Assembly (NCBI RefSeq): GCF_006345805.1
Contig: NC_043010.1
Coordinates: forward strand, 31,744,001-31,808,000
Reading direction: 5' to 3'
Length of the DNA: 64,000 nt
Origin: Octopus sinensis
Lineage: Eukaryota
Shown: piece by piece, positions 19,507 through 33,903 of the stretch
How the letters are laid out: every line of letters begins with the position of its first letter
Numbering within the stretch: the first letter of the stretch is position 1
Program-made: the position numbers and the translations under genes
Notes under the pieces: model-generated
Database searches by the model: none
Told to the model about the DNA's origin: nothing
Seen by the model: the letters and a program-made list of their open reading frames with translations, nothing else

Positions 19507-21135
19507 ATGGTAGATACCAACCCTGTAAAACCAAAAATATTGAATCTCTCAAACCTAAACCTGTCGACCCAACAAATCAAAATCCTTTCAAAAGGACTAA
19601 AATTCACTCCAACTCCACAATACTCTAACCTGAGTGAAATACAGGATGATGTCACACTTTTGCAGAAAATTACGCCTCACAGAGGAATTTTTTGACAAAG
19701 AAATCAATAACAATGAATCAATGGTTTGTAACAAAAGCAGTTATAATCCCACAAAAGGCAGAAACAAAACTGGATAAATTTTGTGACTACATTTCAAACT
19801 TTCCTTATAGTGAACTTCCACAGCCTAAACCCAACATCAGTAAAAGGGAATGGGAAATCATCTACAAGTTACGAAACAATCATGATATCACAATCAAGGA
19901 AGCAGATAAGGGTAGTACTGTCATCATTATGGATACTGGACAATACAAAAACTCTGTATCTCACCTTTTACAAGATACTATCTACTATGAAAGAGTAGTC
20001 AACTACCAACAGTCAAAAACAATGACCAAATTAAACACACTCATTTGCCAAGATCGAAACAACTTAACAGCAAAGGAATGCGACTACATAACAAACTTGA
20101 ATTGCAAAACCAGCATCCTCTAAGGGCTTCCAAAAATCCACAAGAGCAAAATTATTACCAAAGCTTGCAAAAAGTCCACTTCAACCTGCATAACTGTGCC
20201 AGATCCTACTGATCTCAAAATGAGACCAATTGTGGCAGGCCCAAACTGTGAAGCACACAGATTAAGCAATTTTATTGATACCATCCTAAAACCAATACTG
20301 AAACACATACCAAGTATTGTAAGAGATGACCTGGACCTATTAAATCATCTCCCCAAACATACCAATAAAGACATTTTAATTGTCTCCTTTGATGTAATAA
20401 ACCTTTACACTATGATCCCACATGAATATGGACTGGAAGCCATTAAATTTTGGCTAGAAAATACCCCAATGAGGTCCTGGAAAGAATAAAAAAGAATTCA
20501 TCACTGAGGGCTTTAAGTTTATTTTCCAAAACAACTTTTTTTAATTTTAATAATAACACCTACAGACAGGTGTCAGGGACTGCAGTGGGTACTAAAGTTG
20601 CTCCTACTTATGCAAACCTGGTGATGGCCTACCTAGAATTACAAATTTATGAAGAATCCAAATATAAGTATGACCTGTCGTTCCACAAATACCTGTTGGA
20701 GAATTGGAAATGCTGCTTGGATGATTGCCTTATCCTATGGTCCCACACACTCGACCAACTTATTGATTTCAAAAGCTTAATCAACAGTGTCAACAACCAT
20801 ATCCAATTTACAATGGAATATAGTCAAGACCAACTTCCTTTTCTTGACATTCTTATAAAAAAAGGCACCAACATTGAAACTGATATCCACTACAAACCAA
20901 CTGATTCCAAATAATACCTTCTGTTCACCTCCAATCACCCAAAGCACACGAAGACAAACATCCCCTTCAACCTAGCGAGAAGAATCTGTACAATTGTCTC
21001 AAATTATAGAACATGAAATAAAAGACTCCAAGAACTAAAGGCAATTCTTCTTGAAAGACATTATCCAGCATCATTAGTTGACAATGGAATAGACCGGGCC
21101 AAGAAAATTACTACCCAAGACTTACGAAAACCATA
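19507..21135 (+). pseudogene. PLE reverse transcriptase (frameshifted)
   Basis: Consecutive ORF pieces 19507-19695, 19692-20123, 20196-20489 and 20450-20914 carry ordered RT motifs; thumb NIPFNLARRI follows. Confidence 0.9.
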
Positions 21136-22664: not shown

Positions 22665-23735
22665 CGAAACAAAAAATCCTTTTAATTCCACATTGCTCTT
22701 CCTTCCCTCAACCCCAACCTACCTCCCACACTGTCCCTTAAAATAGCAAACAATCCTTAGTTACACACAAAATAAAAAATACCAGGAATACAGATTGGTT
22801 CCTCTCAAATTCTTTGTAGACTCTTAAATATATCTCCTTCTGTGTATATATAAACTACCAAACAAACACCCATGCTAGCATGGAGAACGGACGTTAAACG
22901 ATGATGATATATATATACTCCGTCCAGTAACGAGTTTCAGACCTGTGCTGATATCCAGCAATTTGTGTGCCATGTCAGGCTACATCCACTATCCCACAAC
23001 ACTTCACCTGTGTCTAATGAAGAAGACTGCTTCACTGACCTGGGCCAATGACCATCCCACTGGATGCCAACTCCTGACCAGTTCCAAGCAGTTGATCAAT
23101 TTGCAAGCATCTGTCAATGTGTTGTAGGGTGGTTCAACTTTGGGGTAGTTGTTGCAACAACTACCCCAAAAGCATACTCTCCAATTAGGAAGAAGGGATA
23201 GGATGAAACCGATAATCTGTCCACCGTTTGTCTACCCTATGTGAAAGGCCTCTCCAAAAAGATACAAAAGATATGTGGCCCATATGACAAGGATAGTATT
23301 CAAAAGTAATACAACACTTCGCATATATCTCCTTCGAGTTAAACCACCAATCGAAAAGAATATGACAAAGAACTGCGTGTCCTCCATCCCATGCAGCTGT
23401 GGTAGGTTATACAAAGGCGAAACATGCCACCTCCTCAAAATAAAGGTAGAGAAACATCGCAAAGCTGTGACACAGGGAAATATTGATCAATCAGGTATAG
23501 CTGATCATTTATGGAAAAATGGAGACTACCTCCCCCCGTGGGATGAAGTTAAAATAATGGACAGAGAACACCACTGGAAAATACAAAAACTAAAAGAAGC
23601 AGCACATATGCTAGGACACAACAACCTCCTAAGCAGATCGAGTGCAGATATGAACAGCATATGGGAACTAGTATTAAGGAAGGATAGGAGAATATTAGAT
23701 TTATAAGCCCTAAAATTCACTCCATAATTGCCCGC

Positions 23736-23809
23736 GGGCATATGGCTTAGCGGTTAAGAGCGCGGGCTACTAACCCCAAAATTCCGAGTTCAATTCCAGG
23801 CAGTGACCT
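23736..23809 (+). promoter_or_regulatory. tRNA-like Pol III internal promoter
   Basis: A box TGGCTTAGCGG 23743-23753; B box GAGTTCAATTCC 23786-23797; anticodon-like arm ggg-ctactaa-ccc. Confidence 0.7.
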
Positions 23810-23863
23810 GAATAATAATAATAATAATAATATTAATAATAACCTTAGGAACGAGACACCAAG

Positions 23864-23906
23864 ACACCTGATGAAGTCTGGAGGGTATATCAGCTGAAAC
23901 ATGTTA
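23864..23906 (+). ncRNA. Hammerhead fold, stem I damaged
   Basis: CTGATGA 23868-23874; stem II ag(t)ctg/cagct; GAAA 23896-23899; palindromic acatgt. Confidence 0.6.
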
Positions 23907-24029: not shown

Positions 24030-25850
24030 TGCAGTGACAACCATGATTTTGAGAGACAGCTCACCACTTCACCCTACATGGATATCTCCTCACCATTATC
24101 CACACTGCCATCGTCCTGTAAATTTTGGATTGTGCCTCTACTCTTTCTCCTCACACCCACCCTACTCTTACCCATCTCCCATTCCCCTTCCTCTACCACC
24201 CCTCCAAAGCACCATTCTCTGAGTCTTCCGGGAATTCCAGTTTGACCCATCATCTTGCACATTTTCCCTAACCCAACCTTTACCTCCTTCAAATGAGTCC
24301 TGTGTGACCTCCTGGTCCACAGTCTCTTTTCTACCCCTGTCTCCCAGCTTGGCTCCTTCTGCTCTCGCCCACGCTGTTGCACTTACCCCTTCCTCTCCAA
24401 CATCACTGTCCTCACAGGCACCCTCCCATCACAGCATCGATTCCTTTACCTGCACATCCAGTAATGTTATTTACTGCATCTTCTGCTCTCTCTGTCCTTC
24501 CTGGTACATTGGTCAAATGGGACATTGCTTGGCTGACTGGTTTGCAGAGCACCTCCTAAACATCTGACTTGGCAATTACACCCTGGTCTCATGCCATTTC
24601 TGCTCTACTGGTCATTCGCTACATCTGTTTGTGTTTGGATTGTCTCTGCACAGGGCCCACCCATACTCTCACCTTCACCATGAGCAGGAATTAATCTTCT
24701 CCCTTTGTTCCTTTGCACCTTATGGGTTCAACTTGCTACCTCTTTTCATCTGACACCACCTCACACAGATTGCCTCAGTACTCTCACCACATACACACCA
24801 CTATTCAGACACCCATACACACTGTTCAACTCATTACTCACTTCACACACCATTACACTCACACCCACAAAAACCTTCCCACTCCATACACACTACCACC
24901 AAACACTTCTCAGTACCTACATCACACACTATTATCCACATACCCACACACACTCTTCAATAGCATCCTCACACATACCACTATATGAACATCGCTATGC
25001 ACTGTTTAACTCAGTACACACACCATCATCCACACTCCCACACCAACACAAGCATGTAATGCCTAAACACTGACTATATACACACACACACATTCAACAT
25101 GCATAAATACAGATAACTTTCACCTAGAAACATATACTATACACATGCACACTATATGGTCACAGTCACACACACACATACATACATGCTCACGCCACCT
25201 GAACAGGCACATATCAACTGTTAAATGCAAGTATTTGCACATGCGCACACACATACACACACGCACATGTTAGCCTCACACATATACACATGATGATATG
25301 CATACTCACACATATACACATATACACAGATATACAAATACATAAAATGCACATTTCTCTACACAACACATACACTAGGTTACTTGTACACATAGGCCAA
25401 TGTGTTTGCACACACACACACACACACATACATACTAGTATATGTAACACATACAACTCCACATAATGTATGCACTGGGTCATTTCCAAACATACACAGG
25501 TCCACATATTTTTCAGCTTGCTCACACATACTCACACACTTACCCTTATTCATACATACACACTCATTCACACCATTCTTACATATACGTGTGTGCAAGA
25601 ATAAATTTGTTCAGCCGTCAGCCTTCTTCTGGCTATTTCGTCATGTTGAACTGTTAATTGCTAAAAAAATGTTTTTTCTCTCTCAATTTTTTTCATTTTC
25701 TCTCCTTTTTTTCTTATTCTTTTCTATTGAAGATCATAGGCTTGAAATGTAAAAGACAGTTCCATTCTTCCTGAGCATTAAACCAATACACCTGCTTGTT
25801 TTCATACACCTGTCTTTGTCTTTTGTTTTCTGCAAATTTGAATAATACAC
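24030..25850 (+). mobile_element. 5'-truncated PLE (Neptune-like): GIY-YIG remnant, CA-rich spacer, pLTR
   Basis: FTCTSSNVIYCIFCSLCPSWYIGQ..FAEH..EQELIFSL..PYGFN; CA-rich 24750-25590; terminal module also present at 45980-46170(-). Confidence 0.8.
25719..25756 (+). ncRNA. Degenerate hammerhead-like motif (core CTATTGA)
   Basis: ttt-CTATTGA-agatcataggctt-GAAA-tg-TA-aaa; homologous to 46066-46105(-). Confidence 0.4.
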
Positions 25851-25879
25851 ACACACACACACATATACTCTTTACTCTC

Positions 25880-26071
25880 TCTCTTTTACTTGTTTCAGTC
25901 ATTTGACTGCAGCCATGCTAGAGCACCGCCTTTAATCGAGCAACTCGACCCCGGGACCTATTCTATCGGTCTATTTTGCCGAACCGCTAAGTAATGGGGA
26001 CATAAACACACCAGCATCGGTTGTCAAGCAATGCTAGGGGGACTATCACAGACACACAAACACACACACGC

Positions 26072-26135
<64 letters not shown>

Positions 26136-26139
26136 ATTA

Positions 26140-26181
<42 letters not shown>

Positions 26182-26354
26182 CATATATATGACGGGCTTC
26201 TTTCAGTTTCCGTCTACCAAATCCACTCACAAGGCTTTGGTCGGCCCGAGGCTATAGTAGAAGACACTTGCCCAAGGTGCCACACAGTGGGACTGAACCA
26301 GGAACCATGTGGTTGGTAAACAAGCTACTTACCACACAGCCACTCCTGCGCCTA
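25880..26354 (-). mobile_element. tRNA-derived SINE family B with internal microsatellite
   Basis: Head ggcgcaggagtggctgtgtggtaag..ggttcagtccc (A/B boxes); internal (TA)n; tail tgactgaaacaagtaaaagag. Confidence 0.88.
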
Positions 26355-26439
26355 TGTATATATATATATGTATATATATATATATTGATTAAAGTAATAA
26401 AGTTAATGTCTGGTCTCATCTGACACTAATCCAAAGATT

Positions 26440-26501
26440 AGAGTCTGATGAAATGCCTGCGAGGTTAAGGCCTTTGTGGATGTGAAACCATTGGTCACTC
26501 T
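26440..26501 (+). ncRNA. Type I hammerhead ribozyme with canonical core
   Basis: Stem I agagt/actct; CTGATGA 26445-26451; long imperfect stem II; GAAA 26484-26487; stem III acca-t-tggt; GTC 26494-26496; enclosed by a 27-bp inverted repeat. Confidence 0.85.
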
Positions 26502-26625
26502 GTGACCAGACATTAACTTTATTTCTTTAATACTTTACTACTCTGTTTTAGAGAGTGCTTCTTTTTTGGATACATGATACATTGACGAGGCTGAAACATA
26601 TAAAATAATAAAAGAATATATATAT

Positions 26626-27023
26626 AGGCACATGCTGTATGGCTGTGTGGTAAGAAGCTTGATTTCCAACCACATGGCCCAGTGTTCAGTCCCACTATGT
26701 GGCATCTTGGGCAAATGTCTTTTACTATAGCCTCAGGCCAACCAAAGCCTTGTGAGTGGATTTGGTAGATGGAAACTGAAAGAAGTCTGTCATGTGTGTG
26801 TGTGCTTGTGTCTATGTTTGTTCCCTCTCCATGACCACTTGACAACTGGCATTGGTATGTTTACGTCCCCATAACCTAGTGGTTCGGCAAAAGAGATGAA
26901 AGAATAAGTACTAGGATTTAAAAAAATAAGTCCTGGGGTCAATGTTTTTGACTAAAACCCTTCAAGGTGGTGCTTCAGTGTGGCCACTGTCAAATGACTG
27001 TAACAGGTAAAAGAATAAAAGAA
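26626..27023 (+). mobile_element. SINE family B copy
   Basis: Similarity to 25880-26354. Confidence 0.85.
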
Positions 27024-27153
27024 TACATTTAAAAGAAAAAAGATAGAAGATATATATATATATATATGCATATGTGTGAATAGACATGAAATAAATTGGA
27101 ATAAACATAATAATCAATTGTGCAATAATGCAATGAATATCAAAGGCACATAA

Positions 27154-27538
27154 TCTTTATATATAAAATTGAAGTTGTGTGTCTGTCTCCTACGATTTAG
27201 ATTCCTAACTACTCCCACATTTTGCGGTGCAGTGTAACCAAAAGTGGGTATCTTATAGTCGTGATTCATATCGAGCCCTTCTGGATATTAGCGCATGTCT
27301 ACGATTAAAAAAAAAATTTACCATAATTTTTTCCTATTTTTAATGCATTTTTTTTGATATTATATAAGGGAAGTAACTCTCTAAAAATGTATTATTAAAT
27401 CTCAGAACGTAAAAAGCTACAGTCACACCCCCCTTTGTGGTTAGCCATATTGAGATGGCTATTATACTTTACATCTCTAAAAATTCTTATATAGTTATTT
27501 CCCTTACAAACCCGAGTAACGCCGGGCGATACTGCTAG
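27154..27538 (+). mobile_element. Non-autonomous Helitron-like element
   Basis: A|TCtttatatataaa start; hairpin cccgagtaacgccggg; CTAG|T end; an internal piece recurs at ~55173-55237. Confidence 0.8.
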
Positions 27539-33125: not shown

Positions 33126-33903
33126 AAATAGGAGATCTGTAAATATATACATAAAAAATTAGGTAATTCACATTTATCACCTTGTCTTTATATCCATCTC
33201 CACTTATATCTTTCACTATATTATTAAAGTTGACTAGGGAACCCACTAAATGATTTATTTTTAAAATGTTTACAACTTACCCCTAATTCCTGCCTATGCT
33301 TAATAAGGTTACCTGCTGCTTTGAGGATTTAGAATGATTCTTCTAGGCAAAGTTCACTTCTCTTTCTACCTATTTCATAAGGTTTAGTTCTACTGAGGGT
33401 TGGCCATTTCAGTTCGTATTCTATTTTTTCCTCCCTAATTTGCCATATTAACTTGCTAAGTGATGTCACATTTTCTTATGCCTAAATGATGAGATGTGGT
33501 TATAATATCGTAACTTAAATGTTGTGGCACAGCATCCTGTATATCTATAAGTTGTGTTCTGGGTAACTACTGCACATTCATATGCTATGTTCTTTTCTAA
33601 GCAAGATTTATTCAACACACATTCCCTACCACTTCCACAGTTACAACTAGTGCTTTCCTTCCTATTGCTGCTACTATTAGAGTTATTCCCACAATTACTG
33701 TCATTATTCATATTATTTCTGCTCTTTTCATTACCGTTACCACTACTGCCCCTATTCTTGTTGTTTCCAGTATCTTTTTTATTGATCTTGTCCCCCACTT
33801 AGCCTTACTTTTTTATTATCTATTCTATTCCTGCTAGTTTTGTCAATTTTAAGTTTTGTAATTCCCTTCTATGGGTGTTGTGGGATGCTATGATTTGTAC
33901 TAT

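What the first reader, a model, noticed from the sequence alone, without database searches (positions are those of the whole stretch)
26389..26530. Near-intact hammerhead nested in a 27-bp hairpin, with no ORF
ttaaagtaataaagttaatgtctggtc (26389-26415) pairs with gaccagacattaactttatttctttaa (26504-26530) with one mismatch, extending stem I of a canonical CTGATGA/GAAA/GTC core. The ~230-bp module sits between (TA)n tracts and two divergently oriented SINE heads. It is the best candidate here for an active ribozyme.
Basis: seen in the sequence. Interest (0 to 1): 0.72.

Follow-up and report, generated by a model that had tools for sequence, protein, structure and literature searches.

The report
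Decayed Penelope retrotransposon hammerhead end
This is the broken tip of a common jumping gene (a Penelope-type retrotransposon) that carries a hammerhead self-cutting RNA motif; the long hairpin is the back-to-back second copy seen at most of its sister insertions, and it is predicted to block rather than help cutting, so the finding is ordinary.

Summary
The hairpin and the hammerhead core are real, but the reading is wrong. 26438-26588 is the 3' end (hammerhead plus 58-nt tail) of an old, abundant Penelope-like element (832 first-look candidates; copies 75-90% identical to this one). 26388-26437 is an inverted, tail-less second copy of that end with a 52-nt internal deletion; 19 of 29 sibling loci have such a head-to-head partner. 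[quoted passage not shown] The 27-bp helix does not extend stem I. The rest of the inverted arm pairs with CUGAUGA (predicted probability 0.998-0.999 at every transcript length tested), and the hammerhead fold lies 17 kcal/mol above the ensemble, against 7.5 for the isolated motif. The catalytic core is intact, but G10.1-C11.1 has become A-U and stem II keeps 5 of 12 Watson-Crick pairs. Family cores decay at the rate of the flanks (6.7% vs 6.2%). The SINEs are independent neighbours pointing away. Likely an inactive fossil; cleavage and expression are untested.

The parts
26191..26352 (-). tRNA-headed SINE-like repeat, head at 26352 pointing away from the module; independent neighbour
   Evidence: 6 copies in the window, 82-100% identical; 88% inverted match to the right-hand copy (I6); SINE label from A/B-box-like motifs read by eye, no library test
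26353..26385 (.). (TA)n tract, likely the insertion target
   Evidence: 14 of 23 tail-less ends and 30 of 44 tailed ends of the family are followed by a microsatellite
26388..26437 (-). Inverted, 5'-truncated, tail-less copy of the element end, with an internal deletion equal to forward 26452-26503
   Evidence: starts at the site where 17 of 19 sibling partners end
26389..26415 (+). Outer arm of the 27-bp helix (pairs with 26504-26530)
   Evidence: 1 mismatch in 27
26416..26431 (+). Inner arm, complementary to 26436-26451 (5' strand of stem I and CUGAUGA); predicted lock on the core
   Evidence: MFE; pairing probability 0.998-0.999 in 6 of 6 prefixes; contigs of runs X1 and X2 read T at 26425, which adds a pair
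26439..26502 (+). Type I hammerhead motif: stem I 26440-26444/26497-26501, core 26445-26451, stem II 26452-26483 (decayed, A10.1-U11.1), GAAA 26484-26487, palindromic stem III 26487-26495, C17 at 26496
26503..26530 (+). Element 3' region up to the short (tail-less) end site; 3' arm of the 27-bp helix
26531..26588 (+). 58-nt PLE 'tail', present on the forward copy only
   Evidence: two end classes among 94 aligned copies; absent from 17 of 19 inverted partners
26589..26619 (+). 5'-truncated 3' end of a different, very high-copy repeat; not part of the element
   Evidence: depth jump of about 1000-fold and loose ends leading into another repeat
26628..26791 (+). Second SINE-like head pointing away from the module; independent neighbour
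   Evidence: 89% identical to the left copy over 26640-26791

Best explanation
This is the truncated 3' end of a Penelope-like retrotransposon (hammerhead motif plus tail) joined head-to-head to an inverted, tail-less copy of the same end, and it is likely an inactive fossil because the inverted copy is predicted to pair with the catalytic core. Shown: family membership, the two-armed anatomy, the linkage to RT and endonuclease frames in longer copies, the (TA)n flank, the decayed stem II. Inferred: one target-primed insertion into (TA)n produced both arms from two reverse-transcription start sites (as reported for PAc); a 52-nt deletion in the inverted arm (at or after insertion, over a 3-nt microhomology) left the 27-bp outer and 16-bp inner helices; CpG decay then eroded stem II; SINEs and a SINE tail landed in the same TA tracts independently. 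In the active ancestor the hammerhead likely cut as a dimer through its palindromic stem III.
For: 832 first-look candidates, 60 matches from 40 scored, 75-90% identity over long matches. 19 of 29 sibling loci have an opposite-strand partner head-to-head; 17 of the 19 stop at the short end site where the window arm starts. Upstream of the same end, L025, L006, L027, L007 translate to an endonuclease C-terminus whose atlas neighbours (0.93-0.95) include a GIY-YIG-named cluster and a cluster with PF01541 in 46% of members. L092 and L103 hold RT-like frame, endonuclease and a window-like end (73% and 71% identity) in one locus; L103 has the end on both sides. Hydra motifs RWK and DKT in L103 and L098, CxCx5C in L098 and L063, CxxC and CxH in L025, L092, L098 match the clade definition in PMC8557442. 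Hammerhead fold in context costs 17.2 kcal/mol against 7.5 isolated; even 'core free only' costs 8.2. Core columns mutate in 31 of 466 cells (6.7%), flanks in 121 of 1940 (6.2%). Stems co-vary across subfamilies: 13 of 21 pairs with changes on both sides, 0 of 500 shuffles as high, slid controls 3-11.
Against: All 12 core positions, stem I and stem III are intact here, which holds for only 19 exact genome matches and 13 of 39 copies in the less biased set have an intact core. Isolated, the motif ranks 13 of 33 core-intact copies for folding cost and 15 of 33 for stem II energy, so the motif alone is not clearly dead. Nearest-neighbour models penalise every copy (3.3-23.3 kcal/mol) and ignore tertiary contacts and proteins. 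Pfam found neither RT nor GIY-YIG in any frame tested and the atlas did not recognise the RT piece; the RT label rests on motifs and on likeness to the published Hydra-1_Obim protein read by eye. No tree was built. The copy sets were picked by similarity or by pattern, which biases conservation counts.
Confidence: 0.86

Rival explanations
1. Same origin, but the RNA is still cut: if the locus is transcribed, its GUC strand is cleaved in trans by a transcript of a better-preserved copy, pairing through the palindromic stem III and stem I, because the deletion in the inverted arm leaves 26452-26503 uncovered.
For: 26487-26501 matches the family majority; opening it costs 4.2 kcal/mol, an intermolecular stem III gives -8.9 and stem I -4.7; PLE hammerheads are reported to work as dimers (PMC4209133; PMC6765202).
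Against: C17 is predicted paired (unpaired probability 0.04); few partners keep core plus G10.1-C11.1 (4 of 39); reported PLE hammerhead rates are low even as dimers; both SINE heads point away and no promoter or host exon was seen.
Confidence: 0.07
2. One reading: an active cis ribozyme whose stem I is stabilised by the 27-bp hairpin.
For: Intact core, stems I and III; in the forced fold the outer helix closes a junction next to stem I.
Against: The inner arm is transcribed first and captures CUGAUGA at every length tested; forced fold is 17.2 kcal/mol uphill; A10.1-U11.1 where G-C is described as highly conserved; 5 of 12 Watson-Crick pairs in stem II, joint lowest of 33 core-intact copies; 3-nt loop III points to dimer dependence.
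Confidence: 0.04
3. A non-autonomous retrozyme or ribozyme-bearing SINE unit of about 230 bp, mobilised as such.
For: Many copies are short and ORF-less; retrozymes are reported to derive from PLE ends (bioRxiv 10.64898/2026.07.22.740005, title and passages).
Against: 5' ends are staggered and run into coding frames; no head-to-tail array at the locus; this SINE lies within 1.5 kb of only 7 of 29 sibling loci and next to the end in 1; the internal deletion was not seen in the other aligned copies shown (output partly cut).
Confidence: 0.03

Closest known systems
Hydra-clade Penelope-like elements, Hydra-1_Obim (Craig et al. 2021, PMC8557442; abstract, passages, section 11 and parts of supplement file 1 seen)
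   Same: C-terminal endonuclease; RWK, DKT, CxCx5C, CxxC and CxH motifs; (TA)n insertion; 3' hammerhead with a long stem II and an ACCA-N-TGGT palindromic stem III; inverted 5'-truncated partner and one-sided tail as described for PLEs in general.
   Different: Different family: the hammerhead sequence differs from the published one, the RT region is 63-65% identical in DNA to L101, the locus that resembles Hydra-1_Obim by eye, the endonuclease carries a long T/N/D-rich insertion, and the tail is 58 nt rather than the 30-40 reported. The window copy has no ORF.
Metazoan PLE hammerheads (Cervera and de la Pena 2014, PMC4209133; parts 1-2 of 4 read)
   Same: Type I; short stem I, enlarged stem II, small palindromic stem III; dispersed single motifs and opposite-strand pairs from truncated PLEs; dimer-dependent, weak activity expected.
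   Different: Stem II is longer (about 12-13 bp) with a bulge after, not before, pair 10.1-11.1; this copy has lost G10.1-C11.1.
PAc (Poseidon of Anolis; Frangieh et al. 2024, PMC11167929; parts 1-2 of 4 read)
   Same: Two fixed 3' end sites defining a tail; AT-rich targets; hammerhead in the terminal repeat.
   Different: Other clade; here the ORF ends about 200 nt upstream of the hammerhead in long copies, and no biochemical test exists.
Metazoan non-LTR retrozymes (PMC7229834, search listing only; bioRxiv 10.64898/2026.07.22.740005, passages)
   Same: Non-coding stretch with a type I hammerhead related to PLE ends.
   Different: No tandem array, single forward motif, and the family is protein-coding.

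Membership tests
Type I hammerhead ribozyme | Conserved core CUGANGA, GAAA, UH | tested here: met
   26445-26451, 26484-26487, 26495-26496
Type I hammerhead ribozyme | Stems I and III flank the core | tested here: met
   Stem I 5 Watson-Crick pairs plus 1 G-U; stem III 3 pairs, palindromic
Type I hammerhead ribozyme | Stable stem II closed by G10.1-C11.1 | tested here: not met
   A-U in this copy; 5 Watson-Crick and 6 G-U of 12. Family majority is G (74 of 82) and C (44 of 92, T 39 by CpG decay)
Type I hammerhead ribozyme | Active fold reachable in its own context | tested here: not met
   Prediction only: +17.2 kcal/mol in 26385-26535, core captured with P 0.998-0.999
Type I hammerhead ribozyme | Self-cleavage | not testable with these tools
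   Needs in vitro assay
Penelope-like element | Single ORF with RT and GIY-YIG endonuclease upstream of the hammerhead end | tested here: met
   In longer copies L092, L103 and the chain L062-L066, not at this locus; atlas support for the endonuclease; Pfam silent
Penelope-like element | Inverted 5'-truncated copy adjoining the 5' end | tested here: met
   Window 26388-26437; 19 of 29 sibling loci
Penelope-like element | Tail at one end only | tested here: met
   26531-26588; 17 of 19 partners lack it; longer than the 30-40 bp in print
Penelope-like element | Partial tandems forming pseudo-LTRs | tested here: met
   L103, a sister subfamily at 71% identity, has the end on both sides of the ORF
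Hydra clade of PLEs | RWK and DKT motifs | tested here: met
   L103 and L098; not covered in copies closest to the window
Hydra clade of PLEs | CxCx5C linker; CxxC and CxH around the conserved E and N | tested here: met
   Linker intact in L098 and L063, degenerate in L062, L092, L103; CxxC and CxH in L025, L092, L098
Hydra clade of PLEs | Insertion into (TA)n | tested here: met
   30 of 44 tailed and 14 of 23 tail-less ends followed by a microsatellite, TA or CA type
Hydra clade of PLEs | Placement in the RT phylogeny | not tested
   No labelled reference set on hand
Hydra-1_Obim family itself | Same hammerhead and high DNA identity | tested here: not met
   Published motif matches L101, not the window; L101 vs L062/L092/L103 63-65%
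Non-LTR retrozyme | Head-to-tail tandem, non-coding family | tested here: not met
   No array at the locus; family is coding

The most novel reading that the evidence does not exclude
The two-armed insertion acts as a built-in antisense lock on its own ribozyme, and in this copy the deletion leaves only the substrate strand exposed, so a transcript across the locus would be a target for cleavage in trans by RNAs of other copies: a route by which dead Penelope fragments put ribozyme target sites into host transcripts.
Probability: 0.05. Interest if true: 0.5.

Novelty: new member of a known kind. Interest (0 to 1): 0.12.

Why it matters
Little as a single locus: it is one decayed copy among hundreds to thousands. 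It documents a Hydra-clade PLE family that differs from the published Hydra-1_Obim (long stem II hammerhead, 58-nt tail, low-complexity insertion in the endonuclease), and it is a caution for scans: strong hairpins around hammerheads in animal genomes are expected from PLE inversions and are predicted to silence the ribozyme. Only trans cleavage, if shown, would make it interesting.

Tried and rejected
Rfam at gathering (whole window) and at E<=10 (25800-27200): no hammerhead family. Pfam on endonuclease and RT pieces, six read-through frames and the 717-aa relative: nothing above cut-off; three of the nine frames were the wrong strand of L064. PDB sequence search with the 717-aa ORF: chance hits only. 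Search for longer homologues of the endonuclease: none (weak evidence); of the RT piece: 136 proteins, mostly unnamed, many with PF26215. Atlas on the RT piece: no hit at 0.9. My first guess of the Neptune clade (recalled motifs) was dropped after the clade definitions were read. Expression: no RNA holder listed; not used as evidence. Orthologue test: contigs from four runs (organisms A-D) match parts of the locus with 0-1 differences, too close to test conservation. A two-strand hammerhead fold script crashed; replaced by opening cost plus duplex energies. Lunse et al. 2016 is not held; cited only through PMC6765202. Two searches found no measured effect of an A10.1-U11.1 pair; that it lowers activity is recalled. 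A search for octopus + Penelope + hammerhead gave 5 papers, 4 listed, only PMC8557442 relevant; Repbase/Dfam were not available, so the family may be catalogued there. SINE-driven transcription was rejected because both heads point away. bioRxiv supplements were not seen; supplement file 1 of PMC8557442 was cut when stored and searched by terms only.

Full report
Observation. The 27-nt arms pair with one mismatch and 26385-26535 folds far better than shuffles (z -9.0). The hammerhead elements are in place: stem I 26440-26444/26497-26501, CUGAUGA 26445-26451, GAAA 26484-26487, stem III 26487-26495 with a 3-nt loop, GUC ending at 26496. The bare core pattern is at chance level in the window (7 vs 4.0 expected) and Rfam does not detect the motif. 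The outer helix is not an extension of stem I: 24 nt intervene on the 5' side, and 16 of them (26416-26431) are complementary to 26436-26451, so the predicted best fold pairs CUGAUGA.

It is a repeat end. A genome search with 26386-26625 gave 832 first-look candidates, of which 40 were scored into 60 matches; the long ones are 75-90% identical and begin near query 50 and end near query 203. From all loci fetched, 123 distinct copies were found and the 94 with E < 1e-14 aligned. Their 3' ends fall in two classes, one at the end of the 27-nt arm and one 58 nt further on. 19 of 29 sibling loci (L002-L030) hold a second copy on the opposite strand, 5' end to 5' end; 17 of these 19 stop at the short site, one has the tail, one stops earlier. 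The window's left arm starts at that same short site and, read on the minus strand, runs from upstream of the core into the 3' region with the equivalent of 26452-26503 missing. So the 27-bp helix and the inner 16-bp helix are the two remnants of one inverted partner. Ends are followed by microsatellites in 30 of 44 tailed and 14 of 23 tail-less cases.

The family is a coding Penelope-like element. Upstream of the same end, several copies translate to an endonuclease C-terminus; its atlas neighbours score 0.93-0.95 and include a GIY-YIG-named cluster and one with PF01541 in 46% of members. This piece has 15,635 first-look candidates in the genome and an RT-like piece from L062 has 3,858; these counts include related families and are not copy numbers. 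L092 and L103 carry RT-like frame, endonuclease and a window-like end in order, and L103 has the end on both sides. PMC8557442 describes inverted 5'-truncated partners, one-sided tails and 3' hammerheads for PLEs and defines the Hydra clade by RWK, DKT, CxCx5C, CxxC, CxH and (TA)n insertion; these motifs are in L103, L098, L063, L025 and L092. Its supplement lists Hydra-1_Obim, whose protein and hammerhead match L088/L101 by eye; the window's family is a sister at 63-65% DNA identity in the RT. Against this: Pfam and PDB searches recognised nothing, the atlas missed the RT piece, and no tree was built.

The ancestral ribozyme was likely real. In 25 hand-picked copies, five from sister families (L092, L103, L101, L091, L097), 88.8% of cells pair and 13 of 21 pairs show changes on both sides (0 of 500 shuffles; slid controls 3-11); relatedness and my choice of structure inflate this, and the stem I changes come mostly from the sister families. 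The palindromic stem III fits the dimer mode reported for metazoan PLE hammerheads, which cut weakly in vitro (PMC4209133; PMC6765202); the PAc hammerhead needed its protein (PMC11167929).

This copy is likely inactive. Of 68 copies without gaps over the motif (26 of 94 dropped), 33 keep the core and 12 keep core plus G10.1-C11.1; these counts are raised by the pattern-picked loci, and in the less biased set the figures are 13 and 4 of 39. The window copy keeps the core but has A-U at 10.1-11.1 and 5 Watson-Crick plus 6 G-U pairs of 12 in stem II (median 7 among the 33); it is 10.7% from the pooled majority (median 14.8%). Isolated, its folding cost is mid-range (7.5-7.8 kcal/mol, rank 13 of 33). 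Removing the inverted arm does not rescue the fold when the 3' flank is kept (16.1), because a short hairpin at 26493-26509 covers the cut site. Contigs of two public runs read T at 26425, which strengthens the inner arm. Across loci L002-L042, core columns differ from the majority in 6.7% of cells and flanks in 6.2%, giving no sign of selection after insertion. These are predictions and indirect signs; cleavage was not tested. A trans-substrate role is not excluded: opening 26487-26501 costs 4.2 kcal/mol and intermolecular stems III and I give -8.9 and -4.7.

Surroundings. The flanking SINE-like repeat has 6 copies in the window and lies within 1.5 kb of 7 of 29 sibling loci, next to the end in 1: independent insertions into shared TA tracts. 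Both heads point away from the module. 26589-26619 belongs to another high-copy repeat. Among 71 open frames of 110 aa or more in the window I saw only transposon remnants and simple repeats, by eye. Expression could not be examined.

Verdict. An ordinary, decayed two-armed insertion of a Hydra-clade Penelope-like family: new member of a known kind, interest 0.12. Earlier notes of this scan describe the same two-armed anatomy for other families in this genome; they are leads, not support, and none covers this sequence.

Noticed in passing
window 26425: Contigs of runs X1 and X2 read T where the window has A; the change perfects the inner arm that traps the core. Allele or assembly error.
   Followed up: partly
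window 26493-26509: A short inverted repeat built into the family covers the cleavage site and the 3' strand of stem I; the window's G at 26502 (A in most copies) adds a pair. Not evident in sister families L091, L097, L101, L103.
   Followed up: partly
L092 about 2560-2990; L025, L062, L063, L103 likewise: The family's endonuclease carries a long T/N/D-rich insertion (about 150 residues) between the linker and the YIG motif, absent from L098 and L101.
   Followed up: partly
L098:1296-3449, L099 and many places: A younger Hydra-type family with intact 717-codon ORFs; its 3' region shows no CUGANGA core by my pattern but a short variant motif near L098:3685-3700.
   Followed up: no
window 26181-26342 and 26640-26801: The two SINE copies form a 162-nt, 88% inverted repeat; a read-through transcript is predicted to fold into a long duplex enclosing the module, a possible editing or dicing substrate.
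   Followed up: no
window 23245-23906: Another PLE-like endonuclease frame followed, after a SINE and an (AAT)n tract, by a minimal hammerhead-like motif at 23868-23899.
   Followed up: no
window 19650-21100 and 33466-33798: Remnants of a PLE-type RT (different clade by eye) and of a Hydra-like endonuclease.
   Followed up: no
L046, L049: Sibling loci with short head-to-tail duplications of the hammerhead end on both arms, a retrozyme-like arrangement that could allow dimer folding.
   Followed up: no
L048:1479-1659: Best-preserved hammerhead seen (core intact, G10.1-C11.1, 11 of 12 Watson-Crick pairs in stem II), though it also has an inverted partner.
   Followed up: partly
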